Part shown: in pieces, positions 2,249 to 63,201 of the stretch
How positions within the stretch are numbered: position 1 is the stretch's first letter
How the letters are laid out: each line of letters begins with the position of its first letter
From: Candidatus Poribacteria bacterium
GTDB taxonomy: Bacteria > Poribacteria > WGA-4E > WGA-3G
Length of the DNA: 64,000 nt
Reading direction: 5' to 3'
Assembly: GCA_965214045.1 (NCBI GenBank)
Contig: OZ243935.1
Coordinates: 2,578,409 to 2,642,408, forward strand
Notes under the pieces: generated by a model
What the model was told of the DNA's origin: nothing
Databases searched by the model: none
Seen by the model: only the letters and a program-made list of their open reading frames with translations
Made by a program: the position numbers and the translations under genes

Positions 2249-2336
2249 ATTTTTAATTTCCTTGCGGTTAACTGACGTGAAATTAGTGTTTGAAGTGCCT
2301 TTCCGTAGATCCGCCGTCCACTTCGTTGCGGGCTAA
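2249..2336 (-). promoter_or_regulatory. Box B + Box A leader module (copy 1)
   Basis: Minus-strand reading: TTAGCCCGCAACGAAGTGGACGGCGGATCTACGGAAAGG ... GTCAGTTAACCGCAAGGAAATTAAAAAT followed by ATG. Hexamer GAAATT is at -12..-7 of the start codon. Confidence 0.6.
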
Positions 2337-2376
2337 GTTTTCGTTAAAACTAAATCTCTGCGTTGAAAACTATTCT

Positions 2377-2405
2377 GCTGATCGTTGACTGCTGATTGCT
2401 GATCG
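2377..2405. repeat. heptamer array (HPE arm): GCTGATC GTTGACT GCTGATT GCTGATC
   Basis: Four tandem 7-nt units abut the stop codon (2406-2408) of the vWA gene. Confidence 0.8.
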
Positions 2406-3509
2406 TTATTGCTGTATTGGAATCGGGAACCAGAGTCCCCCAGTTTTCGTTGTTAACGCTCTATGTGTGGTGTGATTGATGCCGATAACATCTACAATGA
2501 TGTTGTTCTGGAAGCATTGTGCTAACACTTCTGGTAGCGTATAAGACCCTTTGCTCGCTTCATCGGTGACAAGAATGAACCGGCGGTTTACCCCTTCGCG
2601 GAAGTTGACGCGACGAATTGTTTTTATGATCGCATTGTGTGCCCGTTCATCTCCAGCAGCGGCGACAACGTGTGAAGTTAACAGCCGTTTGTATTTCTCG
2701 CTATCTCGCGTTTGTGGATGGATAATCGTATCGCCTTCAAGATACCTGAAAATAACGATTCCGAGAGTGAAATCAATGCCTTTCTCTTCAAACACTGTTA
2801 CCATCCGATTGAGTTGTCTGCCGACTGCACGGATATTATCTATCATGCTCCCACTAATGTCAAGTAGAAAAACGAGATCAACAGCAGTTTCGGTTTTGCC
2901 GTCAGCGACGCTCTCGGCGATACCTTCTAATGCCTCCCCCATTCGTGCGTCTCTGTCAATCGGTGGCGCAGGGCTATTATTATCTGTCCCTGTGTTCAGT
3001 GCAGTTTCTCCTTGGATGGCCTTGGGTTTAGGAGCGATTGTGGGAGCCTGCGCATTTGCAGTCGCAATCGTTTTCCATGCGAGAGTCTCTGGGGTCTGCT
3101 CGCGCAGAGATGTCTCAGCCATTGGTAACCGAGCGTCTGTCCTCAGCACGGGAATAGATGCACTGGAAGCGGTTGGCGGTGCTGAATGCACCAGTTTTGC
3201 AACGTTTTGATTCAGAGGTGGCGAGGTCTTTGAACGCGTCGGTGTTGACCGTCGGGTGGTTGGCATAGAACGTTTGCGCGTACTATTTACATGAAAACGC
3301 TGGAGAGATGTTACAGAGATGGCTTCCGAGGTAAGCGGTTCCGAAGGTTGCATCGGTCGATACCACTGAATATAACTGAGACCTATAATTCCCGTCGCAA
3401 TGACGTGTAGAACCAACGAAACCAGAAAGGCACGCCGGGTTTTTCTACGCTTCTGCTGAAGTTTGTCTGAATAGGTATCGAGTAACAGCATATTTCGTTT
3501 CCCTACCAA
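2406..3509 (-). CDS. membrane-anchored von Willebrand factor A (vWA) domain protein
   Basis: N-terminal TM segment (FLVSLVLHVIATGIIGL), a low-complexity S/T/P linker, and the MIDAS motif DLVFLLDISGSM. The exact start is uncertain. Confidence 0.8.
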   Translation of the reverse strand: MVGKRNMLLLDTYSDKLQQKRRKTRRAFLVSLVLHVIATGIIGLSYIQWYRPMQPSEPLTSEAISVTSLQRFHVNSTRKRSMPTTRRSTPTRSKTSPPLNQNVAKLVHSAPPTASSASIPVLRTDARLPMAETSLREQTPETLAWKTIATANAQAPTIAPKPKAIQGETALNTGTDNNSPAPPIDRDARMGEALEGIAESVADGKTETAVDLVFLLDISGSMIDNIRAVGRQLNRMVTVFEEKGIDFTLGIVIFRYLEGDTIIHPQTRDSEKYKRLLTSHVVAAAGDERAHNAIIKTIRRVNFREGVNRRFILVTDEASKGSYTLPEVLAQCFQNNIIVDVIGINHTTHRALTTKTGGLWFPIPIQQ

Positions 3510-3517
3510 GAGGCTGC

Positions 3518-6076
3518 CTACAAAATTGAGATCGTCCCTTGATTTCCATCAACGCGGAGTATCTGTCCGTCAGTGATACGACGTGTCGCGCTCGGAATGT
3601 TCGCTACCGCAGGCACACCATACTCTCTGGCAACGACTGCACCGTGTGAAAGGATCCCACCGCGCTCCATCACCAGTCCCGCTGCATGCAGAAAAAGCGG
3701 TGTCCATGCCGGATCGGTTGACGGACATACCAGAATGTAATCCCTGTCGGATGGGAGCGCATCTGCTGGTGTCAAAAGCACACGGGCGTGTCCGGTCGCA
3801 ACGCCTGCCGAAACGCCCACCCCTGTATATGTATCCACCGCATCAATTGGCATCGATGCACCAATCTGATCCAACGCATCGCTGAAAATGACATCCGGTA
3901 CCTCAATCTGAAGTGCCAGTTCACGCTTCAGATTACGTGTGGTGATTGCATCACTGAGGACTTCACCGTTTATTAATTGTCGTAATTCATCCGGTACGAG
4001 ATAGAAGATGCCGCCATCGAGTTGATAACGGTGATCCAATTCAAGGAGCGCACGTCGGATCTGTTCATAGCCGAGCATCAGGTAAAATTTCGCTGTCTCC
4101 CTGAAAGGCATATAAGTTCTCGCGAAGTCCAGTTCACTCTCAATCTGCTTCCTTAAACCCGTTTTATTTCCGAGTCGTGTGGCGAGTTCCTTTTCTGCGG
4201 ACTCGCGTTGCGCTATCTGTTGCTGTGCCCCGTCACTCTTGGAAGAAGAGGATTCAGTGTTCTTTTGCCGGAAAGATGCAATGATCTGTTCAAGATAAGT
4301 GGTATCTTCGCGCCAGCGGGGCTGTGCTAATTCAAACTCGTCGACACCTCGATGTCCGTAATCTTTTAGGAAATCGGTAAGGGACAAGTCCTCTGTTGCC
4401 ACTTCCGACAATTTCTCGTTGGTTTCAACGGTGAGATTACCAGAAATCCCGCTAATAAGCCTGCTCGCGAAAGTTTTTACTTCTGTTTCATTCAAGCACT
4501 TCTGAAGTGCCGCCTCCAATCGTTGAAGTGAAAACCCCGCAAGGAGTGTAGCGGTCAGGGCTTTCGGCGCGAACTCGTCTAATGTTTTGGCGCGCCATTC
4601 TTCAAACTTCGCTACTAATTCGGCATCCGTTAGGTCTGAATAGGAAATGTCTTGTTCTGTTTCTACTTCCTCCTGAAACGCTGGGATGACCTCTTCAGTT
4701 AACAATCGGACGAAGTCGGAGCGACACTGGCGAAGACGCATTTCTGCTCTGCTCATACGAATGATATGGAGCGGCAGTTTCAACCAAAATGAGGCGTTAC
4801 TCCGAGTAATATCGCTTTGTGCTTGGGTATACATCGCTTCTTGCGGATTTTGCTTCAAGGCGTTAAAATCGTGCGCGAAGGGGAAACCCTCAAAGTGAAG
4901 TTCCGCCTCGCGGTTTAAATTGACGTAAATCCGTCCACATATCAGTTCGAGAATCCCCTCATGATGAACCCGCTTGCTTGGATAAAACCCTAAGTCCCGA
5001 TAGGCTTTACCTAACCCACCAGCACCCGACATAAATTTCTTCATAATTGCCCACGTCATCGGGAGTGGAGCCGGTAGCACCTCCGCAAGGTTGTGATGAC
5101 ACCAAACTGTCCCGTGTTCTTCGGCACATGCTTCCAATATCTGGATTTCCTCCTGACGGACTTTCTCAACGCTTTCTTTATCGACTTCTGAGATGGAATG
5201 TGCCTCATTAAGATGTGTGATAGATGCGGCGGCTGTGGTGATGTAGCGGGACTGCAACAGGACAAACTGTCCATTTGCGAGTGCCCACTCAATGTCCATC
5301 GGTTGTTCATAGTGGGTTTCGACCCGCATACCCAGCTGCGTGAGTTCCTTTAATTGTACGTCTGTTAGACTTGGGACATCTTGTTGTGCAGCGGGTATCT
5401 CACTTATACCAGTAGCGGTTACCATTTCGCTTTTCGTAGCGATGTTTCTCTCCAAAACCTCGCCTGTATCCCGCGACACCTGAAAACTATCAGGCGTGAT
5501 AGCACCAGATACAACCGACTCACCTAATCCCCAATTCGATTCAATAATCGAGGCATTCTCATTAAAGGGAGCGACCGTGAAAAGGACACCGGAGACATCT
5601 GCGTCGCACATTTCTTGAATGACGATTGCCATTGCTAACCCTTCATCAGGGATCTTCTGCGTTTGCCGATAGGCGATGGCGCGTTCCGACCAGAGCGATG
5701 CCCAGCACGCTTTGAGCGCGTCTAAAAGTTCATCGGCTGTTACATTCAGAAACGTATCCTGTTGTCCCGCAAAACTTGCTTCTGCCAGATCCTCCGCTGT
5801 GGCACTGGAACGCACTGCGACTGTGGCTGTCTGTAATTTTTCTCGCGCTATGTGGATTTCTGCGACAAGTTCTGGCGACAATTCTATGTCTTTAACGCTG
5901 CTTTTATTCTGTTCCGATAGACCTTCAACAGAGAATCGGTAAGCATCCGTAGTGACACAAAAACCTCTCGGCACTGAAAACCCAGCCCTTGTCAGTTTTC
6001 CGAGATTCAACCCTTTTCCGCCGACACGGAGCAAGTCGGCATCGTCAATTTCTGAGAAGTGTTTGATAAATTGCAT
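3518..6076 (-). CDS. PEP-utilising enzyme with PPDK_N ATP-grasp N-domain and C-terminal swivel phosphohistidine domain (PEP synthase / rifampicin-phosphotransferase-like architecture)
   Basis: 852 aa. N-terminal VGGKGLNLGKLTRAGFSVPRGF and C-terminal TDPAWTPLFLHAAGLVMERGGILSHGAVVAREYGVPAV. Box B ends at its ATG. Confidence 0.9.
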   Translation of the reverse strand: MQFIKHFSEIDDADLLRVGGKGLNLGKLTRAGFSVPRGFCVTTDAYRFSVEGLSEQNKSSVKDIELSPELVAEIHIAREKLQTATVAVRSSATAEDLAEASFAGQQDTFLNVTADELLDALKACWASLWSERAIAYRQTQKIPDEGLAMAIVIQEMCDADVSGVLFTVAPFNENASIIESNWGLGESVVSGAITPDSFQVSRDTGEVLERNIATKSEMVTATGISEIPAAQQDVPSLTDVQLKELTQLGMRVETHYEQPMDIEWALANGQFVLLQSRYITTAAASITHLNEAHSISEVDKESVEKVRQEEIQILEACAEEHGTVWCHHNLAEVLPAPLPMTWAIMKKFMSGAGGLGKAYRDLGFYPSKRVHHEGILELICGRIYVNLNREAELHFEGFPFAHDFNALKQNPQEAMYTQAQSDITRSNASFWLKLPLHIIRMSRAEMRLRQCRSDFVRLLTEEVIPAFQEEVETEQDISYSDLTDAELVAKFEEWRAKTLDEFAPKALTATLLAGFSLQRLEAALQKCLNETEVKTFASRLISGISGNLTVETNEKLSEVATEDLSLTDFLKDYGHRGVDEFELAQPRWREDTTYLEQIIASFRQKNTESSSSKSDGAQQQIAQRESAEKELATRLGNKTGLRKQIESELDFARTYMPFRETAKFYLMLGYEQIRRALLELDHRYQLDGGIFYLVPDELRQLINGEVLSDAITTRNLKRELALQIEVPDVIFSDALDQIGASMPIDAVDTYTGVGVSAGVATGHARVLLTPADALPSDRDYILVCPSTDPAWTPLFLHAAGLVMERGGILSHGAVVAREYGVPAVANIPSATRRITDGQILRVDGNQGTISIL

Positions 6077-6154
6077 TTTTTAATTTTACCTTGCGGAGTA
6101 ATGAAAGGGGTTTGAACTGTTGCGTGCGTTCCCTCTATCCTGCTTCGCAGTGAG
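6077..6154 (-). promoter_or_regulatory. Box B + degenerate Box A leader module (copy 2)
   Basis: Minus-strand reading ...CACTGCGAAGCAGGATAGAGGGAACG ... CTCCGCAAGGTAAAATTAAAAA followed by ATG. TAAAAT is at -12..-7. Confidence 0.5.
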
Positions 6155-6284
6155 AACCATTACATTACGGACTACGGGTTTGGCTGGAAGATGAGTGAAG
6201 ATAGTATATCAGAATCTATCTACCGAATGCAAATGGGTTTAGACGTGCTTTTTGTAGGATAAAAGGGGGTAGGCTTAAAGTAAG

Positions 6285-13082: not shown

Positions 13083-13112
13083 TGGATATTGCATGCCGAG
13101 TTATGCTATCAT
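13083..13112 (+). promoter_or_regulatory. candidate extended -10 promoter (TGcTATCAT)
   Basis: TGGATA-like -35, then TGC + TATCAT at 13104-13112. It is about 35 nt upstream of the TTG start, which has a GAGGTGA Shine-Dalgarno. Confidence 0.4.
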
Positions 13113-13146
13113 AGCGGGAACAAACATTCCCAATTGAGGTGATAAA

Positions 13147-26556: not shown

Positions 26557-26558
26557 GA

Positions 26559-26586: not shown

Positions 26587-26599
26587 TTACACCAAAATC

Positions 26600-26687
26600 G
26601 TAGCCTGCAACAACGGCGCAGGCGGATATGAGGAAGGCACGTTAACGTTCAAACGCATGTCATTCCTCCGCAAGGAATAATTAAAAT
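26600..26687 (+). promoter_or_regulatory. Box A + Box B leader module (copy 3)
   Basis: GTAGCCTGCAACAACGGCGCAGGCGGATATGAGGAAGGCACGTTAACG ... CCTCCGCAAGGAATAATTAAAAT followed by ATG 26688. Confidence 0.6.
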
Positions 26688-29600
26688 ATGGATTCACGAA
26701 CCAAACGCTTTATTATTACTATCACCGTACTCGCGGTTATTGGCGGATTAGGTGCCATTTGGGTTAGTCTTTATCCCGACTTCCTATGGTTTAAGGTGGT
26801 AGACTACTTCAGCGTTTACACTAAAATTCTCACAACAAAAATCTTCGTTGGTGTGATTGTTGGGGTGTGCTATTTGGCAATCCTCCTGACGAACATCGCC
26901 CTGATTTATCGATTCACGCCAGCGCATCTGAGTCCTGCTTTTATGGGTGGCGCAGATTTCATGGGCGGTGCCACAGACAACCCGGGTGATACGCGAAAAC
27001 TGATTTATGGTGGACTTACACTACTCGCGGTCCTTTTTAGCGTCATGATGGGCTATGCCGCCAGTGATCGGTGGGAAGTCTATCTACGCTACACCAATGC
27101 CGAGAATCTCGCTTTCCGTGCCGCCACCCCTATTATTGTGGAAGAAAGCCTCAATTCTGCCGAGATTCCTGTCTCTCAACTCGAACTCCAAGCGAAAAAT
27201 ATAAGAGTCGGGGATCAGATAAGCGTCCAGGTGAATGGAACAAATCAAGACGCGCGGGTTGAAGCAATTTTGGACCGCGGTGATGTGGGGGCCATCCGTT
27301 TGAATACGCCTGTTCAGATAGAACCGGGGCAGAAAGCGTTCTTCACGTCTCCTGCCCGCGATCCTATCTTTGATAAGGATGTCGCCTACTACGTCTTCAG
27401 GATGCCAGCAGAACGTTATGTTTGTGGGACGCTTTTCGGTATCTTTATGTTAGTGACGATATTTGCAGTCGTCGTCTACTTTTTTCACGGGCTAATCACG
27501 GGCGATACCAGCCAGTTTCGGTTCCGTCCACCTTTCAACGTGAAAGCGCATTTGTTCACGCTTGTCGGTTTAACACTCCTATTCCGAGCATGGAACTACC
27601 GCTTTGCTATGTTTGACCTGCTTTACACGACAAACGATGTCGTCCGCGGTGGTGGTGGATATGCCGCAATGAAAGCACGACTCCCTATATTGTACTTCTT
27701 GATTGGACTTACAATTCTGTGTGCTCTCATTTTCATCATTTCTATCTTCCTCCAACGCAACACACTCGCTTTTGGTGGATTTGCTGTGTTTCTAATTGCT
27801 GGATTTCTTGGACAAGTCTATCCGGTCGCTATACAAAGATGGCAGGTTGAACCCAGAAAACAGGTATTAGAGGCGGACTATATCAACTACAACATCACAG
27901 CGACGCTTCAAGCTTATGGTTTGGCTGAGAACACTGTGACGGAAGAAGAATATCCGCTGACAGAACAACTCAGTTATGATGACATAAGAAGTCCCGAAAA
28001 CGCTTCTGTTTTCAATAGTATTCGTCTCTGGGATTGGCGACCCTTGCGCAGAACTTTCCGTCAACTCCAAGAATTGCGGACACAATATGATTTCAACGAT
28101 GTCGATATCGATCGCTATGTCGTTGATGGTGAAATTCGTCAGGTCATGCTCTCTGGACGAGAACTCAATATCAATGAGCTGCCTGCCGAGATCAGAAACG
28201 ACTGGTATAAGCAGACCTATACCTACACGCACGGATACGGTGCCGTTGTGAGTCCCGTTAACGAAATTGAGAACGGCAAACCTAACATGTATATTCAGGG
28301 ATTGCCACCTATTGATTATAGTGAGCAGTGGCAGCACCGGTTTAGTGAAATACCGGGACCCCGTATCTATTATGGTGAACGCACAGATCGCTACGTTATC
28401 GTGCATCCAGAACGGAGCCAAGGACTTGAGTTTGACTATCCGCAGGAGGGACAACAATACGCCGAATATGCATATCAAGGAAAGGGTGGCGTACAACTGA
28501 ACTCTTTCTGGCGGAAAATGGTGTATATGCTTAAATTCGATAACGAAATTAACTTCGTGCTACCCGGTGAAATTTCATCGACAAGCCGAATCCTCTACGA
28601 ACGGAATATCAAAAATCGGATCCAAAAAATCGCACCGTTCTTACGGTACGACGGGGATCCTTACATCATTCTCCATAATGGCAGATTGGTTTGGATGATT
28701 GATGCCTATACCATCACACATCGGTATCCTTATTCTGTTTCAATGCGAGAGTTCGTCAGCGAGAGAAGACGGCAGATCGCAAATGCACAGCGAGACAATG
28801 AGCCGTGGGGAAACTACATCCGAAATTCTGTTAAAGTCGTTGTGGATGCTTACGACGGCACTGTCGATTTTTACGTTATGGAACGAGAACAGGATCCGAT
28901 CGCCGAATGTTACCGAAAGATTTTCCCCAGCCTGTTCAAGCCGTTTGAGGAGATGCCGGAAGAACTCAAGGCGCATATCCGGTACCCGACATCCATGTTC
29001 CTTATCCAAGCCCGGGTCTATCGGGATTATCACATGAAAGATCCGGTGACCTTTTACGCAGGGGAAGATAAATGGGAGATCGGCAGAGAACTCTATGATA
29101 ATACGGATGCCCAAACGCGACAGGCTTCTGCGCCTCCGCAACCCAGAAGTCCTTTTGCCCCGCAGCAAGTCCCCCAAAATTCCGGTGCAAATGGACAACC
29201 GGTTGAACCCTATTATGTGGTCATCAGACTACCCGGACAGGAACAATCGGAATTCATGTTGATGTTGCCTTTCACACCGCTCAACAAACCGAATCTTACG
29301 GCTTGGCTCGCTGCCCGATGTGATTTGCCCCAATATGGGCAACTCCTCGTTTACCGATTCCCGAAAGGCAAGCAGATCGCGGGACCGATGCAGGTGGAGA
29401 ACTTTATTAGCCAAGAACCGGAGATTTCACAGCAGATTAGTCTCTGGAATACGCAGGGGTCCCGTGTCTTACGCGGAAACCTGTTGATTCTGCCGGTGAA
29501 CAACTCGCTACTCTATGTTGAGCCCATCTATATACAATCCGAGGATGAAAAAACCGCTATTCCCGAATTAAGGCGGGTCGTCATCGGATATGGGAACGAA

Positions 29601-29879: not shown

Positions 29880-29880
29880 C

Positions 29881-30461: not shown

Positions 30462-30557
30462 AACACTGGAATCTATTTTGGCGGGTTAAAATGTAGGAGC
30501 GACCTGTAGTTCGCGTCGAACACGGAAACCTTTATTGCACAGATCGTGATACTTATC

Positions 30558-30597
30558 CGTAAGGTAAAATTAAAAAACCGCAAGGAAAGTCTAAAAA
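30558..30597 (+). promoter_or_regulatory. tandem Box B half-copies upstream of pheA
   Basis: CCGTAAGGTAAAATTAAAAAA + CCGCAAGGAAAGTCTAAAAA followed by TTG 30598. Confidence 0.5.
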
Positions 30598-31665
30598 TTG
30601 GATTTAACAAAGTACCGAGACCAAATCAACGAGATTGACGACCAAATTTTGGCACTGCTACAGAAACGGGCTGAGATTTCCAAGCAGGTCGGTACGGTGA
30701 AAGCAGAAACCGGTGTTGCAGAGGTCTATGTTCCGCATCGGCAGAAGCAGATTATTGAACGTTTGAAGCAACGAAATCACGGTGAGTTCCCTGAAGTTGC
30801 GCTTGAGGCGATCTGGACCGAGATTTTATCTGCGTCCCGATCCTTGCAGGATCCAGAGCGAGTCGCTTTCCTCGGACCGGTTGGCAGTTTCGGGCACCAG
30901 GCGGCACTATCTCATTTCGGTGTGTCAACTGAGTTCATCCCCGTTCGCCCACAGACCGACATTTTTACTGAGGTTGAATCTGGTAGAGCGGACTACGGTG
31001 TGGTGGCTGTTGAAAATTCTGCACAAGGCACTGTGCGTGATGTTTTGGAACGTTTCCAACGCACACCGTTGTGGATTTGCGCGGAGACATTCCAACCGAT
31101 AAAACAGCATCTTTTATCAAGGTCATCGCTCACGGAAATTCGGTGTGTCTACTCACACCCGCAACCTTTCGCGCAATGTAAGATATGGCTAAGGCGAAAT
31201 CTGAGTGATGCTGAGCAGGTTGAGGTTATTAGTACGTCTGAGGCGGCAGAACGCGCTGCACAAGAGCCGTCAGCAGCTGCCATTGCAAGTGAACTTGCGA
31301 GTGAAATTTATCGGGTTCCAATCGTTGCAAACTCCATTATGGATGAACCTGATAACACAACCCGTTTCTTCGTGATCGGAAAGCGCATCCCAGAACCGAG
31401 CGGGCACGATCGGACTTCGCTGTTTTTCGCAATTCCGGACACGGTTGGCGCATTACACCAAGCCTTGGGTATTTTAGAGGTGGCGCAATTAAATCTGAAT
31501 TATTTAGAATCTTTGCCGTCGCGAGTCAAACCGTGGGAATATATCTTCTTTACTGAGATGGAGGGGCATATTGCCGACGAACGCGTCATCGTGGCACTTG
31601 AGCAACTTGAAGAATTGTGTCGGAGCGTCAATGTCCTCGGATCCTATCCACGCGGGACTTTTTAA
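30598..31665 (+). CDS. pheA: bifunctional chorismate mutase / prephenate dehydratase (P-protein)
   Basis: CM domain INEIDDQILALLQKRAEIS. PDT domain VAFLGPVGSFGHQAA and NTTRFFVIG. ACT domain TSLFFAIPDTVGALHQAL. TTG start. Confidence 0.9.
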   Translation: MDLTKYRDQINEIDDQILALLQKRAEISKQVGTVKAETGVAEVYVPHRQKQIIERLKQRNHGEFPEVALEAIWTEILSASRSLQDPERVAFLGPVGSFGHQAALSHFGVSTEFIPVRPQTDIFTEVESGRADYGVVAVENSAQGTVRDVLERFQRTPLWICAETFQPIKQHLLSRSSLTEIRCVYSHPQPFAQCKIWLRRNLSDAEQVEVISTSEAAERAAQEPSAAAIASELASEIYRVPIVANSIMDEPDNTTRFFVIGKRIPEPSGHDRTSLFFAIPDTVGALHQALGILEVAQLNLNYLESLPSRVKPWEYIFFTEMEGHIADERVIVALEQLEELCRSVNVLGSYPRGTF

Positions 31666-31682
31666 TTATACCTTGCAGAGGA
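31658..31682 (-). promoter_or_regulatory. orphan antisense Box B overlapping the pheA stop codon
   Basis: Minus-strand reading CCTCTGCAAGGTATAATTAAAAAG. No minus-strand ORF follows it. Confidence 0.4.
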
Positions 31683-31817
31683 ATAACGTCCGTTTCAACT
31701 ATCAAGGGCGTTCCTTAAACCTGCAGAAACACCCAAGCAAAAACCCTGTGCCATTGTTGCAGGCTGCTGATTTGCGTAGAAAAATAAAGATAAAACGAAA
31801 CAGTAGTCCGTAACGTA

Positions 31818-39406: not shown

Positions 39407-40255
39407 TTAGATTGGCACAACTTGTGGGGCTTGTTCCAAGTTCAGATTGTGCGCTGCTGCCCATTCCGAACCTGCCCAGTGTACGCCGTTCGGGTCGCGC
39501 CTGCCTTGTGTGTCTGTAGATGCCCCGAGAAACTGCCTGCCGAGATCGTTTAAGTTTTCCACCAGTGGTTCATCCGGTTGTAGGCTATCGTTGTAATAGC
39601 GCAGATAATAATCCGGCTTAATCCAGCGATAATGGTACCCATAGATGATAACCTTAGAGATAGTCTCTCTGAAATTCAGTCCCGCGGCATGATAGATACG
39701 GCTTTCAAACAGAAATGCATCTCCTGCGCGGAGGAGCGGTTCGTCATACACAAGTGGATCCACTTCACCTTCAGGAATGCCCAACGGCTCACTCAGTTTG
39801 TGGCTCTTTCGGATAAACCACGTCGCGCCTGAGTTCGGTATACTGAAATCCGTTAAGCAGTAGCCTACCTTCAAACCGACGCGCGGGCAACCTGCGTGCC
39901 CAACGTCCAAATGCACACCGACATCTCGATGCCAATTGCGGTTGTCAGGTTTTTCAGGTGCCTGTGGGTGTTTGTAGATAAGTGCTGTGTTCGTGATATG
40001 GATATTTGTACCGAGCAGTTGCAGAATCAATGGCACTGCTTTCGACTGTGTCGCAAGGTCAGCGAATGCGAGTTCTTGTACCAACCCGTCCCGCCGATGT
40101 GCGTAATAGTCGTGGTACTCAAACGATTCCATGAGTCGGTCACCTGTCTCGGTCAGACGTTGAATCATCTCACTGTCAATTGCTGAGCGCACGATGAGGT
40201 AACCGTTCTCTTCAAATTCTTGGCGTTGTGTCTTTGTCAACTGAACAAATTCCAT
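39407..40255 (-). CDS. phytanoyl-CoA dioxygenase (PhyH) family protein
   Basis: MEFVQLTKTQRQEFEENGYLIVRSAI... and WHRD. Close paralogue of 48393..49208. Confidence 0.85.
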   Translation of the reverse strand: MEFVQLTKTQRQEFEENGYLIVRSAIDSEMIQRLTETGDRLMESFEYHDYYAHRRDGLVQELAFADLATQSKAVPLILQLLGTNIHITNTALIYKHPQAPEKPDNRNWHRDVGVHLDVGHAGCPRVGLKVGYCLTDFSIPNSGATWFIRKSHKLSEPLGIPEGEVDPLVYDEPLLRAGDAFLFESRIYHAAGLNFRETISKVIIYGYHYRWIKPDYYLRYYNDSLQPDEPLVENLNDLGRQFLGASTDTQGRRDPNGVHWAGSEWAAAHNLNLEQAPQVVPI

Positions 40256-40344
40256 CTTTTAATTATTCCTTGTGGTTCGGTCAGCTGGGTTTTGGACTTA
40301 ACGTTCCTTTCCGTATATCCGCTCTCCATTTCATTACGAGCTAT
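40256..40344 (-). promoter_or_regulatory. Box B + Box A leader module (copy 4, with compensatory stem changes)
   Basis: Minus-strand reading ATAGCTCGTAATGAAATGGAGAGCGGATATACGGAAAGGAACGTTAA ... CTGACCGAACCACAAGGAATAATTAAAAG followed by ATG. Confidence 0.6.
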
Positions 40345-40460
40345 GCGTTTTCTTTAGTAGGCGGGGGAAACGCCCTATCAAAAACACTCCGATTCCCGAC
40401 TTTTCGGATAAGTCGGACAAAGCCGTAAAACTGAATAGTTGGCTCCATCCTGATAGAAAG

Positions 40461-40489
40461 TTGATAGACATTTAAAAATATGCTATCAT
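40461..40489 (+). promoter_or_regulatory. sigma-70-type promoter TTGATA-17 nt-TATCAT, giving a near-leaderless transcript
   Basis: The -10 hexamer ends at 40489 and the ATG is at 40499. Confidence 0.55.
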
Positions 40490-40498
40490 GAGTGAAAA

Positions 40499-48392: not shown

Positions 48393-49208
48393 TCAGATTG
48401 TCACGACGTGTGGGACTTCCTCAAACTGCAAATTATGGTCTGTTGCCCACTGCGACGCGGCACCCCCGCCGCCACCGAGAAATTGCTTGCCAAGGTCATC
48501 GAGATTTTCCATCACCTTCTCCTCAGGTTGCAGTGTGTCGTTGTAATACAGCAGATAATGCTCCGGCTTCAGCCATGCGTAGTGATATCCGTAGATAACG
48601 ACTTTAGCGACATTCTCTGTAAAGTTGACACCCGCGGTGTGATAGATACGGTTTTCAAAGAAAAACGCGTCGCCTGCCCGCAAGACAGGTTCATCATAAG
48701 GTTCAACCGGATCTATTTTGCCTTCAGGGATACCCAGCGGTTCACCCGATACATGGCTTTTTGGAACAAACAGCGTCCCACCGGAATTCGGCACGGTGAA
48801 ATCCGTCAAGCAGTACCCGACTTTCAAGCCGACGCGTGGGCAATCCTTGTGTCCGAGATCTAAAAATACACCCGCATCTCGATGCCATCCACGGCTTTCC
48901 AGTTTCTCAGGCGGTTGCGGATGTTTGTAGATGAGCGCAGTATTCGTGATATGGAGATTTGTGCCAAGCAGTTGGATAACCAACGGAATCGCTTTTGTCT
49001 GCGATGTGAGTTCCGCGAAGACAGCCTCCTGCACCAAACCGTCCCGCTTATGGGCATAGTAGCCGTTGTATTCAAACGAATCCATGATCCGGTCCCCTGC
49101 CTCGGTCAAACGGTCTATCATGTCGCTGTCAAGGACCGACCGCACGATGAAGTATCCGTTCTCCTCAAATTCCTCACGTTGTGCGTCTGTCAACTGGACG
49201 AATTCCAT
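48393..49208 (-). CDS. phytanoyl-CoA dioxygenase (PhyH) family protein
   Basis: MEFVQLTDAQREEFEENGYFIVRSVL... Paralogue of 39407..40255. Confidence 0.85.
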   Translation of the reverse strand: MEFVQLTDAQREEFEENGYFIVRSVLDSDMIDRLTEAGDRIMDSFEYNGYYAHKRDGLVQEAVFAELTSQTKAIPLVIQLLGTNLHITNTALIYKHPQPPEKLESRGWHRDAGVFLDLGHKDCPRVGLKVGYCLTDFTVPNSGGTLFVPKSHVSGEPLGIPEGKIDPVEPYDEPVLRAGDAFFFENRIYHTAGVNFTENVAKVVIYGYHYAWLKPEHYLLYYNDTLQPEEKVMENLDDLGKQFLGGGGGAASQWATDHNLQFEEVPHVVTI

Positions 49209-49298
49209 TTTTTAATTATTCCTTGCGGTTCGGTCAGGGTGGATTGGATAAATAACATTCTTTTTCGTATATCCGCCTGCACTGTTGTTGCAGGCTAT
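49209..49298 (-). promoter_or_regulatory. Box B + Box A leader module (copy 5)
   Basis: Minus-strand reading ATAGCCTGCAACAACAGTGCAGGCGGATATACGAAAAAGAATGTTA ... CTGACCGAACCGCAAGGAATAATTAAAAA followed by ATG. Confidence 0.6.
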
Positions 49299-49471
49299 GT
49301 TCTTCCTTTGAAGTCCCGTAGACGAATATTTGTGTAGAATCGTTGTGAATAGGAATGTCTGAATATGGTATCATAAATTAAAACGACTGTCTACTGATAT
49401 CCTTCTTCTGTAGGAGCGAACTCTGCTCGCGATGCCTGCTGACAGTTGGACTTTCAAGGAAAAAGAAAAAC

Positions 49472-51884: not shown

Positions 51885-52022
51885 TTTATATGTGTCCTTT
51901 ACGATATAACAGATTGTAAACGGAATACCCACTCGGGTTTGGTTCGCGTTTATTTGTTGCAAAATTAATGCTAACATTAATGTGCAAAAGCGTCAAGCAA
52001 AAAAATTAAATCCATTCAGCAA

Positions 52023-52053
52023 CCTGACCGAACCGCAAGGTAAAATTAAAAAA
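52023..52053 (+). promoter_or_regulatory. Box B copy upstream of the ZIP transporter
   Basis: CCTGACCGAACCGCAAGGTAAAATTAAAAA followed by TTG 52054, which opens a 21-codon ORF overlapping the ZIP ATG (52089). Confidence 0.5.
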
Positions 52054-52088
52054 TTGCATTACAATCCAAATTCTGGTATAGTTATACT

Positions 52089-56606: not shown

Positions 56607-57431
56607 ATGGTACAAGAGCAGTCCAATCTTTGGGCAAAATCATACATCAGTGATGGATATTTACTGCTTCCAGATATCATTACACTGGAAGAATGTAATG
56701 ACCTGAAAGCAGAAATGCTAAAAATCTTTCGTGGAGATTACCGCTGTGAGGCGATCCCACCGATGCCGGAAACGGCAAGCGAAATGGAAATTTTGGATAG
56801 AATCATGTGTGTTGGCGAACCACATGTCTTTAGTCCCTTAATTCGGCGTTATATTGAACATCCAAAAATCTGTGAAGTCCTTCGGACGATTGTTGGGGCA
56901 CACATCCCATTTTGGGAGGGTGGTGTGAAATGTATGCAGTCGATGATGTTGAGCAAAGTGCCGGGACATACGGGGAACCCATGGCATCAGGACGAACACC
57001 CGATTCCGACGCGTGATCGATCGCTGCTCGGTGTGTGGATTACATTAGATGATGCCACAGTTGAAAACGGTTGTCTCTGGGTTTTACCCGATAGCCACCG
57101 CTCTGGTGTAATTTATGACCGTTTCCCACACGACAAACGCCATGAATTCGACAGTTGTCACGAAGCAGCCGGGTTTGATGACACCGGCGAAATCCCGATT
57201 GAGATGGCAGCCGGTAGCGTTCTCTTTTTCAACGGTTACCTTTTACACCGTTCCAAGAAGAATCGGAGCGATACATTTCGGCGTATCCTTGTGAGCCACT
57301 ATTGCTCAACAGCGTCGTGGTTAGGCTGGAAGGGACAACGGAATTATCGCGGGGTTGTTACCGTCGCAGGCGAAGATCCTTACATTGACGAAGGCTATGC
57401 CACACCAAATACCTGGGCACGATGGGAGTAG
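56607..57431 (+). CDS. phytanoyl-CoA dioxygenase (PhyH) family protein
   Basis: I prefer ATG 56607 (AAGGA SD). Motifs PWHQDE, LWVLPDSH and LLHRS. Confidence 0.85.
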   Translation: MVQEQSNLWAKSYISDGYLLLPDIITLEECNDLKAEMLKIFRGDYRCEAIPPMPETASEMEILDRIMCVGEPHVFSPLIRRYIEHPKICEVLRTIVGAHIPFWEGGVKCMQSMMLSKVPGHTGNPWHQDEHPIPTRDRSLLGVWITLDDATVENGCLWVLPDSHRSGVIYDRFPHDKRHEFDSCHEAAGFDDTGEIPIEMAAGSVLFFNGYLLHRSKKNRSDTFRRILVSHYCSTASWLGWKGQRNYRGVVTVAGEDPYIDEGYATPNTWARWE

Positions 57432-57442
57432 TCTAAACAACG

Positions 57443-57474
57443 CACCTGACCGAACCGCAAGGAAAGTTAAAAAT
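57443..57474 (+). promoter_or_regulatory. Box B copy
   Basis: CACCTGACCGAACCGCAAGGAAAGTTAAAAAT followed by ATG 57475. Confidence 0.55.
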
Positions 57475-58290
57475 ATGAAACTGACAGAACATCAAGTGAA
57501 TTTTTTCAATACTTTCGGCTATCTCGCAATACCAGGCATGTTTTCCCCAAGCGAGGTAGAATGGATAATCGAAGAATTTGAGGTATCGATTCAGGAATTT
57601 GGAGGCGGCAAAAATCATGATGGCACAAGCCGCACAATGTTCGGCGGTCCGATAGAGCATCGCCCTCGACTCTGTACCCTCCTTGATGATGAACGAGTTA
57701 AAGGACTCATCGGTGGTGTGATCGGTGAAGACTTCAACTACGCTGGGGGCGATGGGAACTATTACACCGGCGATACCGGCTGGCATCCTGATGGAAGCTG
57801 GGGACGCCTCTTCGCTTGTAAGGTGGCATTTTATCTCGATCCTTTGACGAAAGACACAGGCTGCTTACGGATCATTCCCGGTAGCCAGAATCCGGCGCAC
57901 TTCGTCAGAGCCGGAAAAATCGATCCAAATCAATCAGAGACGTTATACGGTATACCGCCGCGCGATTTTCCAACCAGTGTTGCATTGGAGAACACACCCG
58001 GCGATGTCGTGATTTTCAACCACGACACCTATCACGCAGCATTTGGTGGTGGGACCCGGAGACGGATGTTCACCATGAATTGCACACAACATTGTACGAC
58101 CGAGCCAGATTTAGAGACGCTTCATCAGTACTTGAGTGTCCATTCAGCAGGTGGATATAAAATTGAGACAGGCGCGGGTATGTTTTTCCCAACGATGGTT
58201 GACACTGCGGACGCAAAACGACAAATCCATCTCCAGCAATGTAGTAATATCCATGACGAATTGTTTCCGCAATACGCTCGACGGTCTTAG
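57475..58290 (+). CDS. phytanoyl-CoA dioxygenase (PhyH) family protein
   Basis: I prefer ATG 57475 (MKLTEHQVNFFNTFGYLAIPGMF), directly after Box B. ORF-track start 57355 overlaps the previous gene. Motifs GWHPD and TYHAA. Confidence 0.85.
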   Translation: MKLTEHQVNFFNTFGYLAIPGMFSPSEVEWIIEEFEVSIQEFGGGKNHDGTSRTMFGGPIEHRPRLCTLLDDERVKGLIGGVIGEDFNYAGGDGNYYTGDTGWHPDGSWGRLFACKVAFYLDPLTKDTGCLRIIPGSQNPAHFVRAGKIDPNQSETLYGIPPRDFPTSVALENTPGDVVIFNHDTYHAAFGGGTRRRMFTMNCTQHCTTEPDLETLHQYLSVHSAGGYKIETGAGMFFPTMVDTADAKRQIHLQQCSNIHDELFPQYARRS

Positions 58291-58338: not shown

Positions 58339-58555
58339 GTTGTCAGTTATCAATTATCAGCTTTATAGTAAAGCCCGAAAATATCTGCACACCGCTGGTA
58401 GGGTCTTTCACCTAACCGCACCGAGTTTGGTGTAAAATTAATTACAGAATCCACTATAAGAGTTATCAGTTGTCAATTATCAGTTATGAGTTAAAGAGGA
58501 CCCTGGTTACACGAAAACCTCTTAACCGACAACTGAGAACCGACAACCGATAGCC
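58339..58555. repeat. cluster of three heptamer arrays
   Basis: GTTGTCA GTTATCA ATTATCA (58339-58361). GTTATCA GTTGTCA ATTATCA GTTATGA GTTAAAG (58462-58496). Inverted AACCGAC AACTGAG AACCGAC AACCGAT AGCC (58524-58555). Confidence 0.8.
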
Positions 58556-61074: not shown

Positions 61075-61110
61075 TATCACTTTTGTATCCTGTTCGTGGA
61101 ATAAAATTGT

Positions 61111-62105: not shown

Positions 62106-63053
62106 TTGAAGCATATATTCTGTCTAATTCTACTCATCGCGTTGCTTTTTCCAGCTGTTGCCGCTGCTACATTCAATAATATTGGTGTTGGCGCGAGACC
62201 GTTAGGTTTAGGTGGAGCGTTCGTCGCACTCGCTGATGATAGTAACGCTGCAGATTACAACGCCGCAGGATTAGGTTATATTGATGGGATCCATCTCGGT
62301 GCTACGCATGCGCAACGCTTTAACGGGCTCATTACCTATAATGCCCTCAGTAGTGTTATTCCGCTCGGAAGAATAGGGGCAATTGGGGCAGGTTTCGGAG
62401 GTTTGGCAGAGGATTCCGAAATTTATAGTGAACAGACGTTGCGACTCTCTTACGGAAGTGCGCTTTTCAAACAATTCGCAATCGGTGCAAATCTGAAACT
62501 CTTCCGTGCCGCTTTTGACGAGACAAATGAATTCGTTGTAGAGAATCCGTATTTCGTCAACACCTCGAGTTCAGCTGTCTCTTTTGATCTCGGTGTGATC
62601 GCAAAACCTTTCCAGAGTCTGAGTCTTGGTGCATCGGTAGAGAACCTACTCCCCGCAGATATGAGCATATCTGACACGCAGACGGATTCGGTGCCGTTAA
62701 ACATTCGTGCCGGTTTGGCATACAGACTTGCGTCTATGGCGGAGATGAGCGCGCAAGGTGCGGCGGTCAGCAACTTGTTGAGAGGTAGTCTTGGGAGCTT
62801 TGAGGTTGCGTCTCGCAATGGCGAAATTTATATACGCACCGGAATAGAAGTCTGGTTGAATAAATCTATCGCTGTTCGCGGCGGTTATGGCGTGAAAAAT
62901 GGAGGGAGTTCGGCAACAACCCTGAGTTTCGGTGGGAGTGCTAAGCTGCCAATCAGTGGTACTGCCCTCCAACTTGACTATGGATTTCAACTGCTGAGTG
63001 GGAATCTTCAAGACAATATAACACAGCGGTTCTCCCTTAATCTGTTGCTTTAA
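62106..63053 (+). CDS. outer-membrane beta-barrel protein, PorV/PorQ-like
   Basis: TTG start and signal peptide. GARPLGLGGAFVALADDSNAADYNAAGLG. C-terminal aromatic-rich strands. The function call is tentative. Confidence 0.6.
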   Translation: MKHIFCLILLIALLFPAVAAATFNNIGVGARPLGLGGAFVALADDSNAADYNAAGLGYIDGIHLGATHAQRFNGLITYNALSSVIPLGRIGAIGAGFGGLAEDSEIYSEQTLRLSYGSALFKQFAIGANLKLFRAAFDETNEFVVENPYFVNTSSSAVSFDLGVIAKPFQSLSLGASVENLLPADMSISDTQTDSVPLNIRAGLAYRLASMAEMSAQGAAVSNLLRGSLGSFEVASRNGEIYIRTGIEVWLNKSIAVRGGYGVKNGGSSATTLSFGGSAKLPISGTALQLDYGFQLLSGNLQDNITQRFSLNLLL

Positions 63054-63056
63054 TTA

Positions 63057-63089
63057 GGTGTCGGTCGTCGGTTGCCAGCAGTCAGTAGC
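63057..63089. repeat. heptamer array (HPE arm)
   Basis: GGTGTCGGTCGTCGGTTGCCAGCAGTCAGTAGC, directly after the stop codon and upstream of Box A. Confidence 0.7.
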
Positions 63090-63113
63090 GAGATTTGCGT
63101 TAGATCCAAACCC

Positions 63114-63201
63114 ATAGCCTGCAACAACGGCGCAGGCGGATCTACGGAAATAAACGTCAAGGCGCTAAGCCCCTGACCGAACCGCAAGGTATAATTAAAA
63201 A
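63114..63201 (+). promoter_or_regulatory. Box A + Box B leader module (copy 6)
   Basis: ATAGCCTGCAACAACGGCGCAGGCGGATCTACGGAAATAAACGTCAAGG ... CCCCTGACCGAACCGCAAGGTATAATTAAAAA followed by ATG 63202. TATAAT is at -12..-7. Confidence 0.6.

What the first reader, a model, noticed from the sequence alone, without database searches (positions are those of the whole stretch)
2249..63201. Recurrent bipartite leader module (Box A hairpin + Box B) that ends directly at an ATG/TTG in nine of eleven copies; -10-like hexamer fixed at -12..-7 suggests leaderless mRNAs
Box B has the consensus CTGACCGAACCGCAAGG + NANNNT + TAAAAA followed directly by ATG/TTG. It occurs at 2249-2277(-), 6077-6098(-), 26665-26687, 30558-30597 (tandem halves), 40256-40286(-), 49209-49238(-), 52023-52053, 57443-57474 and 63170-63201. 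Further copies are inside queG (31862-31892) and one antisense orphan (31658-31682). Six copies also carry Box A 20-35 nt upstream (ATAGCCTGCAACAACGGCGCAGGCGGATMTACGGAAAGGNACGTTAA). Box A folds as GCCTGC/GCAGGC. The copy at 40298-40344 reads GCTCGT...GAGAGC, with two compensatory pair changes (C:G to T:A and T:A to C:G), which suggests selection on structure. In eight of the nine gene-proximal copies the hexamer at -12..-7 relative to the A of the start codon fits NANNNT with A at -11 and T at -7: TATAAT, TAAAAT x2, AATAAT x3, GAAATT and AAAGTT. The pheA copy is the exception (AAAGTC, C at -7). This is the spacing expected if transcription starts on the start codon. The AAGG is 12 nt from the ATG, which is poor for an SD, and no conserved -35 is visible. 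The genes served are functionally unrelated: xylose-isomerase-like, PEP-utilising enzyme, UPF0182, pheA, three PhyH, ZIP and an FN3-like protein. Other genes in the window use TTGACA-17-TATAAT promoters plus GGAGG SDs. Working hypothesis: Box A is a terminator or insulator hairpin and Box B is a promoter or regulator site for leaderless genes. A dispersed mobile promoter cassette or a 5' UTR RNA element are alternatives.
Basis: partly seen in the sequence, partly recalled or inferred. Interest (0 to 1): 0.75.

Follow-up and report, generated by a model that had tools for sequence, protein, structure and literature searches.

The report
Repeated leaderless-promoter module of Poribacteria
A conserved 100-base module (a hairpin, a fixed spacer and a promoter-like box ending exactly at the start codon) sits in front of about one gene in six in this sponge-symbiont (Poribacteria) genome and across the phylum, and most likely makes messenger RNAs with no leader; this way of expressing genes is known in other bacteria but has not been described in this packaged, repeated form.

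Summary
A scan of 185,579 species' genomes finds the core almost only in Candidatus Poribacteria, across many species.

The unit is about 100 nt:
- CaAAAnCCGT
- a 22-nt Box A hairpin with strong compensatory covariation
- a variable middle of constant length (AG to AAGG is 70-71 nt in 61 of 70 copies)
- invariant CCGCAAGG
- NANNNT
- an A-run
- ATG

In a sample not biased by my search pattern, A at -11 and T at -7 are 100% conserved, and ATG lies exactly 12 nt after AAGG. No -35 and no SD are present. Orthologues and homologues without the module start at the same ATG behind a normal SD. One copy precedes a tRNA-Ser/SRP-RNA unit.

Best reading (about 0.6): a -35-less, -10-type promoter placed for leaderless mRNA, as shown experimentally in Deinococcus-Thermus, carried on a dispersed repeat family. 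Copies come and go between species. About 13% are inverted and sit flush with a convergent gene's stop codon.

The role of Box A is unresolved; it is not a classical terminator. No transcript data were available.

The parts
2247..2344 (-). Full module (Box A hairpin, middle, Box B) in front of the xylose-isomerase-like gene. CCGCAAGG is at 2260-2267. ATG starts at 2248, 11 nt after AAGG (hexamer GAAATT).
   Evidence: Model hit of 81.8 bits; register; Pfam.
6074..6183 (-). Full module with an insertion in or after Box A, in front of the PEP-utilising enzyme gene. CCGCAAGG is at 6089-6096, followed by TAAAAT, TAAAAA and ATG at 6076.
26592..26690 (+). Full module in front of the UPF0182 gene. Box A is at 26602-26623, CCGCAAGG at 26668-26675, followed by AATAAT, TAAAAT and ATG at 26688.
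30485..30597 (+). Degenerate module with two tandem Box B cores 21 nt apart (CCGTAAGG 30557-30564 and CCGCAAGG 30578-30585). The second reads AAAGTC, TAAAAA, then TTG 30598 (pheA). It is the only gene-proximal copy without T at -7.
31656..31757 (-). Inverted module (CTGCAAGG 31671-31678, TATAAT) whose Box B end overlaps the pheA stop codon (31663-31665). It carries the 21-nt second repeat (31725-31744) next to Box A (31744-31764).
31795..31894 (+). Full module in the pheA-queG spacer. Box A is at 31805-31826 and CCGCAAGG at 31872-31879, followed by AAAAAT and TAAAAA. There is no ATG at the register. The QueG frame runs through it, with an in-frame ATT 16 nt after AAGG.
   Evidence: (96.4 bits).
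40253..40352 (-). Full module in front of a PhyH gene. The Box A stem is GCTC/GAGC (a compensatory variant). CCACAAGG is at 40268-40275, followed by AATAAT, TAAAAG and ATG at 40255.
   Evidence: The orthologous locus L110 has a different module version at the same ATG.
49206..49306 (-). Full module in front of a PhyH gene. The Box A stem-loop is at 49275-49295 and CCGCAAGG at 49221-49228, followed by AATAAT, TAAAAA and ATG at 49208.
51976..52055 (+). Box B without Box A, in front of the ZIP-family gene. CCGCAAGG is at 52033-52040, followed by TAAAAT and TAAAAA. At the register sits an in-frame ATT (52053). The first in-frame ATG is 52089.
57401..57477 (+). Box B only, squeezed into the 43-nt gap after the preceding gene (which ends at 57431). 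CCGCAAGG is at 57455-57462, followed by AAAGTT, AAAAAT and ATG at 57475 (PhyH).
63106..63204 (+). Full module in front of the FN3-like secreted protein. The Box A stem-loop is at 63117-63137 and CCGCAAGG at 63182-63189, followed by TATAAT, TAAAAA and ATG at 63202.

Best explanation
Box B is a sigma-70-type promoter that lacks a -35 element. It consists of an invariant CCGCAAGG box at -20 to -13, a -10 hexamer NANNNT at -12 to -7 and an A-rich discriminator. It is placed so that transcription starts on, or within 1-2 nt of, the A of the start codon, which gives a leaderless mRNA.

Box B is the business end of a roughly 100-nt modular repeat specific to Candidatus Poribacteria. The module also carries a structurally conserved 22-nt hairpin (Box A) at a fixed 70-71 nt upstream. 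It precedes roughly one gene in six to eight, of unrelated function.

The module behaves as a dispersed repeat family. Copies are gained, lost, duplicated in tandem and found in either orientation between related species.

What is shown:
- the sequence architecture, its conservation pattern and the hairpin covariation
- its restriction to the phylum
- exchange of the module for an SD leader in front of the same start codon
- occurrence in front of RNA genes

What is inferred:
- that RNA polymerase starts there and that the mRNAs are leaderless
- that CCGCAAGG replaces the -35 contact, through sigma region 3 or an unknown factor
- that Box A contributes to promoter function or to propagation of the module
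For: 1. Enrichment and census in the window.
2. In the genome scan about three quarters of the listed hits are Poribacteria MAGs of many species. The others are single hits in unrelated taxa without the module, consistent with chance.
3. In 37 copies not biased by my pattern, A at -11 and T at -7 are 100% conserved while the other hexamer positions vary. These are the two bases sigma-70 flips out of the helix (established knowledge). ATG lies 12 nt after AAGG in 37 copies, 11 nt in 10 and 13 nt in 2.
4. In the pattern-selected set, the start codon of an ORF of at least 80 aa lies at the exact register in 49 copies and within -1 to +3 nt in 64. The random control is 7.8% for the wider window -3..+6. 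At the exact register the codon is ATG 45, GTG 2, TTG 2.
5. There is no SD at module genes, while other window genes have GGAGG. Orthologue L005 has AAGGAG 5 nt before the same ATG that L113 serves with the module. PhyH homologues L222 and L223 have a -10 box, then GGAG, then the same N-terminus.
6. In L108, Box B ends 3 nt before tRNA-Ser(gga), which is followed by SRP RNA. This unit is not translated.
7. Some copies are followed by a normal SD leader, for example L006, L102 and L050.
8. Across orthologues the part that persists is AAGG, NANNNT, the A-run and ATG, or only the last three parts. Upstream parts are lost (L044, L097, L057).
9. The same geometry (TANNNT 6-7 bp before the ORF) was shown experimentally to be a -10 element giving leaderless mRNA in Deinococcus (PMC12340547; see also PMC3160421 and PMC4007540).
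Against: - No transcription start data exist for any copy.
- No -35 is present, and the first hexamer base is A more often than T. CCGCAAGG and the run of four A at -5 to -2 are far more conserved than a plain promoter needs.
- About 21 of roughly 170 copies point antisense into the 3' end of a convergent gene, flush with its stop codon. A promoter there has no obvious use.
- Some genes behind Box B have no ATG, GTG or TTG near the register. Their frames run through Box B (queG, L051, L065, L080). That would need an upstream transcript or a non-AUG start.
- pheA has TTG, which is a poor leaderless start in E. coli (established knowledge).
- The Box A covariation and the fixed spacing imply a folded nucleic acid or a second bound factor. 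A simple promoter model does not explain this.
- Only one RNA-gene case was found, and a metagenome scan for more returned only chance hits.
Confidence: 0.6

Rival explanations
1. The whole module is transcribed from a promoter further upstream and acts as a structured 5' UTR. Box A would be a 5' stabilising hairpin. Box B would be an unstructured, A/U-rich translation-initiation region with AAGG as a weak, distant SD.
For: - Hairpin covariation with wobble pairs on the sense strand: U-G 23 times at pair 17-27, and G-U or U-G 5 times in all at pairs 12-32 and 13-31.
- Fixed Box A to Box B spacing.
- Tandem arrangements in which an upstream Box B would transcribe a complete downstream module.
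- ORFs whose frame runs through Box B with an in-frame ATT.
- AAGG pairs with the extreme 3' end of the anti-SD, so a longer spacing is tolerable (inference from established SD geometry).
Against: - No promoter motif lies at any fixed distance upstream of Box A.
- The middle region has no folding signal (z about 0).
- Invariance of exactly A(-11) and T(-7) is not expected of an RNA enhancer.
- CCGC does not match the SD consensus, and the 12-nt spacing is rigid, unlike SD spacing.
- A copy sits in front of a tRNA/SRP RNA unit.
- Copies followed by a full SD leader make a second ribosome-binding site redundant.
- Box B alone persists when Box A is lost.
Confidence: 0.15
2. The module is essentially a selfish or structural dispersed repeat (REP-, BOX- or MITE-like). 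Its hairpin would be recognised by a transposase or nuclease, or act in RNA like a REP. The A/T-rich end would merely be tolerated next to gene boundaries, and the -10 resemblance would be incidental.
For: - Both orientations occur.
- 15 inverted copies supply the TAA stop of a convergent ORF at one exact offset.
- Presence/absence and opposite-orientation copies occur in the same orthologous spacer, for example L056 against L043.
- Whole modules and 21-nt Box B units are duplicated in tandem.
- A second 21-28-nt repeat is nested in or next to Box A.
- (G)TAG immediately 5' of the hairpin is reminiscent of REP.
- The GAA/GTA triloop closed by C-G is a motif known for stable DNA mini-hairpins (own knowledge).
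Against: - Orientation bias is strong: 72 copies lie forward at a start codon against about 21 inverted.
- The module replaces an SD leader exactly up to a conserved ATG. That would abolish expression unless the module supplies signals.
- No terminal inverted repeats or target duplications are visible.
- Copies are old. Identity of the middle region has a median of 50%, and no near-identical dispersed copies were seen. Even so, CCGCAAGG, A(-11) and T(-7) stay invariant, which indicates purifying selection.
- Inverted pairs (REPIN-like) are rare, 2 cases.
Confidence: 0.15
3. Box B is the operator or promoter of a dedicated regulon. CCGCAAGG would be the site of a specific activator or an alternative sigma factor that switches hundreds of genes together, for example a symbiosis or growth-phase programme.
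For: - The 8-mer at -20 to -13 is invariant and abuts the -10.
- No -35 is present.
- The same genomes also hold ordinary TTGACA-N17-TATAAT promoters. One example was read, in L108.
- Two or three subfamilies differ in the sequence 5' of CCGCAAGG.
Against: - The genes served are functionally unrelated and numerous, about 1 per 5-8 kb.
- Orthologues can lose CCGCAAGG and keep the -10, A-run and ATG (L097, L057).
- This reading refines the best explanation rather than replacing it.
Confidence: 0.1

Closest known systems
-10 region adjacent to ORFs giving leaderless mRNAs (Deinococcus-Thermus, Actinobacteria; PMC12340547, PMC3160421, PMC4007540, PMC4633059)
   Same: A TANNNT-type hexamer lies 6-7 bp before the start codon. 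There is no SD and no need for a -35. A large fraction of genes with unrelated functions is served, and ATG dominates as the start codon.
   Different: - Here the hexamer is embedded in a 20-nt nearly invariant block (CCGCAAGG, NANNNT, T/A-AAAA).
- The first hexamer base is A or T rather than an invariant T.
- The block is the 3' end of a 100-nt repeated module with a hairpin at fixed distance.
- No start-site data exist for Poribacteria.
Correia repeat-enclosed elements of Neisseria (own knowledge)
   Same: They are abundant intergenic repeats of about 100-150 bp that bring promoters to neighbouring genes and form hairpins in transcripts.
   Different: Correia elements have terminal inverted repeats and a TA duplication, and sit at variable distances from genes. 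The Poribacteria module has no inverted ends and is flush with the start or stop codon.
BOX elements of Streptococcus pneumoniae (boxA-boxB-boxC modules; own knowledge)
   Same: The build is modular, with optional or iterated internal units. They lie in intergenic regions, number in the hundreds per genome, have predicted stable structure and affect neighbouring gene expression.
   Different: There is no sequence similarity. BOX elements are not positioned at the start codon and carry no -10 box at leaderless distance.
REP/BIME elements and their RAYT transposases (own knowledge)
   Same: Both have a short extragenic hairpin with arm covariation and a conserved (G)TAG 5' of the stem. Both orientations occur, and both lie between co-directional genes.
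   Different: REPs are about 35 nt, often paired in inverted orientation and lie 3' of genes. Here the hairpin is never solitary: it always lies 70-71 nt upstream of Box B. Inverted pairs are rare. No RAYT gene was looked for.

Membership tests
Leaderless-gene promoter (-10 box adjacent to the ORF) | A -10 hexamer with invariant A at position 2 and T at position 6 | tested here: met
   In 37 copies not biased by my pattern, A(-11) is 100% and T(-7) is 100%. Among the window copies only pheA deviates.
Leaderless-gene promoter (-10 box adjacent to the ORF) | Hexamer ends 6-7 bp before the start codon | tested here: met
   ATG lies 12 nt after AAGG, which leaves 6 nt after the hexamer, in 37 copies. 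It lies at 11 nt in 10 and at 13 nt in 2. In the pattern-selected set 49 copies have a start codon at the exact register.
Leaderless-gene promoter (-10 box adjacent to the ORF) | T at hexamer position 1 (nearly invariant in Deinococcus, PMC12340547) | tested here: not met
   Position -12 is A 65%, T 32%.
Leaderless-gene promoter (-10 box adjacent to the ORF) | No Shine-Dalgarno sequence 5-10 nt before the start, while the organism uses SD elsewhere | tested here: met
   One search shows GGAGG at other genes. Searches show relatives without the module that have an SD before the same ATG.
Leaderless-gene promoter (-10 box adjacent to the ORF) | Primary transcript 5' end on the start codon | not testable with these tools
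   No transcript data were available. The contigs fetched for homologues carry no start-site information.
Classical sigma-70 promoter | A -35 hexamer (TTGACA-like) 16-18 bp upstream of the -10 | tested here: not met
   No Box B is scored by the two-hexamer scan. The position matrix shows nothing TTGACA-like at that position. CTGACC lies only 11 bp from the hexamer.
Extended -10 promoter | TG at -15/-14 | tested here: not met
   Positions -16 to -13 are AAGG. G(-14) is present but T(-15) is not.
Intrinsic terminator (for Box A) | G+C-rich hairpin followed directly by a U-tract | tested here: not met
   The hairpin is real but is followed by GGATMTACGG. The terminator scan does not report it. 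Only the variant with the 21-nt insert has hairpin plus T5.
Shine-Dalgarno ribosome-binding site (for AAGG) | At least 4-5 nt complementary to the anti-SD, at 5-9 nt from the start, with variable spacing | tested here: not met
   Only AAGG matches. The spacing is a rigid 12 nt, and the CCGC 5' of it is invariant but not SD-like.
REP/REPIN-RAYT | Hairpin with a conserved GTAG at its 5' foot | tested here: inconclusive
   Upstream of the AG, T(-1) is 84% and G(-2) is 61%, so GTAG is present in roughly half the copies.
REP/REPIN-RAYT | Inverted doublets, and a cognate RAYT gene in the genome | tested here: not met
   Only 2 divergent pairs (window, L108) were found among about 164 copies examined. 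The presence of a RAYT gene was not tested.
MITE | Terminal inverted repeats and target-site duplication | tested here: not met
   The left end (CaAAAnCCGTAG) and the right end (TTAAAAA) are not inverted copies of each other. No duplication is visible in the alignment or in filled-versus-empty comparisons.
Any Rfam RNA family | Match at the gathering score | tested here: not met
   There are 0 hits in the window. On one module only chance-level hits appear at E above 2.

The most novel reading that the evidence does not exclude
The 100-nt module is a self-contained, mobile gene-boundary cassette peculiar to Poribacteria. A lineage-specific factor (a sigma region or activator reading CCGCAAGG, and/or a structure-specific protein reading the Box A hairpin at a fixed 70-71 nt) would make it a -35-independent promoter. 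The cassette would be installed flush with start codons, converting SD-led genes to leaderless ones. In the opposite orientation it would be installed flush with stop codons. Hundreds of genes would thus have been rewired by one element, possibly with AUU or AUC tolerated as 5'-terminal start codons.
Probability: 0.25. Interest if true: 0.85.

Novelty: new variant of a known kind. Interest (0 to 1): 0.65.

Why it matters
Poribacteria are uncultivated sponge symbionts, so their gene-expression signals are known only from sequence.

If the reading is right, several things follow:
- A sizeable share of their genes is transcribed from one stereotyped, -35-less promoter and translated without a leader. 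That would add a further phylum to the leaderless-rich lineages.
- Start codons of hundreds of genes could be fixed to the nucleotide, which improves MAG annotation. queG and ZIP in this window show how gene callers go wrong here.
- It provides a compact natural promoter, and possibly an insulator part, for work with these genomes.
- It poses concrete questions. What reads CCGCAAGG? Why is a covarying hairpin held exactly 70-71 nt upstream? How is a 100-nt unit placed flush with start and stop codons?

The case also shows how a promoter can spread as a repeat family and replace SD-type leaders.

Tried and rejected
1. Long-range pairing between the Box A 3' flank and the Box B 5' half. Mutual information and pair counts track subfamilies, but the middle region folds no better than shuffles on either strand (z about 0). 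I left this as inconclusive, not as a structure.
2. A promoter upstream of Box A. Conservation extends only 10 nt (CaAAAnCCGT), with no -10 or -35 at a fixed distance. The promoter scan is not above chance.
3. More RNA genes behind Box B. The single metagenome scan (Box B followed by TAGYKCAR) returned 106 stretches, essentially all chance. Three tRNA-Arg cases lack every other module feature. Rfam scans of 36 loci added only the SRP RNA in L108.
4. ATT inside Box B as a start codon. The frames of downstream ORFs split 14/13/10, which shows no enrichment.
5. Box A as a terminator for a co-directional upstream gene. The upstream neighbour is co-directional in 46 of 52 copies. The contrast with Box-A-less copies, 41:9 against 55:24, is weak by my rough estimate; no formal test was run.
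6. Transcript evidence from public assemblies. The three window proteins looked up are not on record. Logan contigs of homologues extend upstream and are SD-led.
7. Literature. No paper on a Poribacteria promoter, leader or repeat was found.
8. Recent mobility. No near-identical dispersed copies were seen, and median identity of the middle region is 50%.


Full report
**Observation**

The motif is in the window as described.
- The 17-mer CTGACCGAACCGCAAGG occurs 6 times with up to 3 mismatches, against 0.17 expected.
- The Box A consensus occurs 4 times against 0 expected.
- The core CGCAAGG-N6-TAAAA occurs 10 times.
Seven carry Box A. Four are Box B with a degenerate or absent upstream part.
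- Rfam has no family for it, and the window has no tRNA gene.

The register of every window copy is listed. ATG lies 12 nt after AAGG in six copies and 11 nt after it in one. pheA has TTG at 12 nt, and its hexamer is the only one without T at -7.

- The ZIP 'TTG' (52054) is out of frame. The in-frame codon at the register is ATT 52053.
- The copy 'inside queG' lies upstream of the conserved QueG N-terminus, so it sits in the pheA-queG spacer.

**Where it comes from**

I scanned one genome for each of 185,579 species with CCGCAAGGNANNNTTAAAA. About three quarters of the listed loci are Candidatus Poribacteria MAGs of many species, including closed chromosomes. The remainder are single matches in unrelated taxa that lack the rest of the module, consistent with chance. 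One locus (L110) is syntenic with window 32-40 kb at 84-89% identity. The window is therefore poribacterial and the element is phylum-wide.

Density is about 1 per 5 kb in the window. In the loci it is roughly 1 per 8 kb, not counting the copy that brought each locus in. That corresponds to several hundred copies per 5-6 Mb genome.

**Anatomy**

In 53 standard copies the distance from the AG that opens Box A to the end of TAAAA is 85-86 nt in 48. AG to AAGG is 70-71 nt in 61 of 70. The middle is only about 50% identical between copies. Conservation extends 10 nt upstream of Box A (CaAAAnCCGT) and no further.

Box A is a 22-nt hairpin.
- The lower stem has 4-6 bp, followed by an internal loop or further pairs, an inner C-G or U-A pair, and a triloop.
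- Pair counts on 52 sequences: pair 13-31 is CG 37, UA 13, UG 2; pair 15-29 is CG 27, UA 25; pair 20-24 is CG 38, UA 12.
- None of 500 shuffles reaches the observed covariation. Registers slid by 1-3 columns drop from 81% to 30-48% paired.
- The hairpin is more stable than shuffles (z about -2.2). The middle region is not (z about 0) on either strand. The second helix I suspected is therefore not established.
- Box A is not found alone.

Variants:
- a 21-nt insert (GTTTTTGCTTGGGYGTTTCT) right after the hairpin, or its reverse complement inside the loop
- 21-nt tandem duplications of Box B
- tandem whole modules
- Box B alone

**What Box B looks like**

My search pattern fixed several Box B positions. 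To avoid that bias I used only copies that lie in a locus brought in by a different copy, plus the window's own copies.

Among the 37 of these with ATG 12 nt after CCGCAAGG:
- A at -11 and T at -7 are both 100%.
- Positions -12, -10 and -8 vary between A and T. Position -9 is A 86%.
- Positions -5 to -2 are A in at least 92%.

The first ATG lies at 12 nt in 37 copies, at 11 nt in 10 and at 13 nt in 2.

A one-base-shifted variant (CCGCAAGG-[AT]AA[AG]TT-AAAAAA-ATG) keeps the AAGG-N12-ATG distance and both invariant bases. This is the signature of a -10 element. Nothing -35-like lies at 16-18 bp, and there is no TG at -15/-14.

In the pattern-selected set, the start of an ORF of at least 80 aa falls at the exact register in 49 copies and within -1 to +3 nt in 64. 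A random control gives 7.8% for the wider window -3..+6. At the exact register the codon is ATG 45, GTG 2, TTG 2.

**Evidence on function**

1. The organism uses ordinary SDs (GGAGG 6-9 nt before many window genes), but module genes have none.
2. L113 carries the module flush with ATGAAAACAATTACG. Its orthologue L005 has the same ATG preceded by AAGGAG and no module. PhyH homologues at 75-77% identity (L222, L223) have a TATAAT-like box, a GGAG leader and the same N-terminus. Pfam domains start within 10-20 residues of the register ATG. The ATG is therefore the native start, and the module replaces an SD leader exactly.
3. In L108, Box B ends 3 nt before tRNA-Ser(gga), which is followed by SRP RNA. 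This unit is never translated. The same locus has a textbook TTGACA-N17-TATAAT promoter in front of another tRNA cluster.
4. Some copies are followed by an ordinary SD leader and start, for example L006, L102, L050 and L007/L020.
5. In orthologous comparisons the persistent part is AAGG, NANNNT, the A-run and ATG, or only the last three. Box A and the middle are lost (L044, L097, L057, L064).
6. The geometry equals the -10 motif found 6-7 bp before ORFs in about a third of Deinococcus radiodurans genes. That motif was shown experimentally to act as a -10 region for leaderless mRNA (PMC12340547; background in PMC3160421, PMC4007540 and PMC4633059).

**What does not fit a plain promoter**

- CCGCAAGG and the A-run are far more conserved than promoters need.
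- Box A covaries and is held at a fixed distance, yet it is not a terminator: it has no U-tract and the scan does not report it. No role could be assigned.
- The upstream neighbour is co-directional in 46 of 52 copies with Box A, but the contrast with Box-A-less copies is weak.
- About 21 of roughly 170 copies are inverted relative to the adjacent gene. Fifteen of them sit at one exact offset where the reverse complement of Box B (TTT TAA) provides the stop codon of a convergent ORF of at least 120 codons. Two of the 15 are chance matches in non-poribacterial loci. The window example is 31656-31757, at the end of pheA. In L108 an inverted copy abuts the 3' end of tRNA-Ala.
- L056 has an inverted copy at the stop of gene X. 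Its orthologue L043 has a forward copy at the ATG of the next gene Y. A shared spacer segment shows that these are different sites.

The module is therefore a dispersed repeat that turns over between species and ends flush with gene boundaries in either orientation. Even so, dispersed copies are old, there are no inverted ends, and forward copies at start codons outnumber inverted ones 72 to about 21.

Several genes behind Box B lack a canonical start at the register and have an in-frame ATT or ATC there or inside the hexamer. The frame statistics (14/13/10) do not single this out.

**Conclusion**

The most likely mechanism (about 0.6) is that Box B is a -35-less promoter. Its -10 hexamer sits 6 nt from the start codon, so the mRNA is leaderless or nearly so. 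CCGCAAGG at -20 to -13 would stand in for the -35 contact, through sigma region 3 or an unknown factor.

The promoter travels as the 3' end of a 100-nt Poribacteria-specific repeat with a hairpin at fixed distance. This is a new variant of two known kinds: -10-adjacent leaderless promoters and promoter-bearing dispersed repeats.

The rivals cannot be excluded without 5' end mapping:
- a structured 5' UTR with a translation enhancer (0.15)
- an essentially selfish REP/BOX-like repeat (0.15)
- a dedicated regulon site (0.1, which is really a refinement of the main reading)

I found no description of this element in the searchable literature.

Noticed in passing
window 31725-31744(-), 18155-18174(+), 60851-60870(-); many loci, e.g. 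L028, L039, L048, L081, L098, L103: A second short repeat family, GTTTTTGCTTGGGTGTTTCT(GCGTAT), 21-28 nt. It is inserted directly after the Box A 3' arm, which makes a terminator-like hairpin plus T5. It also occurs reverse-complemented inside the Box A loop, and sometimes in short arrays.
   Followed up: partly
window 31656-31757(-) against the pheA stop at 31663-31665; L108 2737-2760; L056, L073, L083, L089, L095, L105: Inverted Box B copies lie flush with the 3' end of a convergent gene. In 15 cases the stop codon is the TAA formed by the reverse complement of Box B (C-terminal Phe, then stop). In L108 the copy abuts the 3' end of tRNA-Ala. Their purpose (antisense promoter, 3' element or insertion preference) is unknown.
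   Followed up: partly
window 26558-26582, 29880-29905, 58461-58493, 58524-58550, 2376-2419; loci L007, L041, L066, L071: Short tandem arrays of 7-nt units (AGTTGTC, AGTTATC, AACCGAC, CCATCAG, TGCTGAT; 3-6 copies) lie in intergenic regions. They often come just after a stop codon and just upstream of a module. In other loci they flank a hairpin of the type AAGAGGGTTTTCGTTTAACAAAACCCTCTT.
   Followed up: no
window 52053 (ZIP), 31888-31890 (queG); L049, L057, L064, L065, L083, L112: Genes behind Box B that lack ATG, GTG or TTG at the register have an in-frame ATT or ATC at or next to it, or ATT inside the hexamer. Several of these give plausible signal peptides or N-termini. They may be non-AUG starts. 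The frame test was not significant.
   Followed up: partly
window 31818-33035 (queG as listed by ORF logic): The longest ORF for queG starts at GTG 31818, inside Box A, and reads through the whole module. The conserved QueG N-terminus (ELGF..VGIT) begins just after Box B, so the long start is probably an annotation artefact of the open frame.
   Followed up: partly
window 40461-40501 and about 13090-13150; L005, L113, L007, L020: A recurring extended -10 of the form TATGCTATCAT / TGnTAtaAT. At 40461-40489 it pairs with TTGATA at 17 bp and ends 9 nt before ATG 40499, so that gene may also have almost no leader.
   Followed up: no
L108 1560-3585: A cluster of six tRNA genes plus SRP RNA. The first tRNAs follow a textbook TTGACA-N17-TATAAT promoter. 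The last tRNA (Ser-gga) and the SRP RNA follow a back-to-back pair of modules.
   Followed up: yes
window 40253-40352(-) against L110 510-640(+): Orthologous PhyH genes (89% identical DNA) both carry a module at the same ATG. The modules differ in the Box A stem, the middle subtype and a partial Box B duplication. The module therefore evolves, or is exchanged, much faster than the gene.
   Followed up: partly
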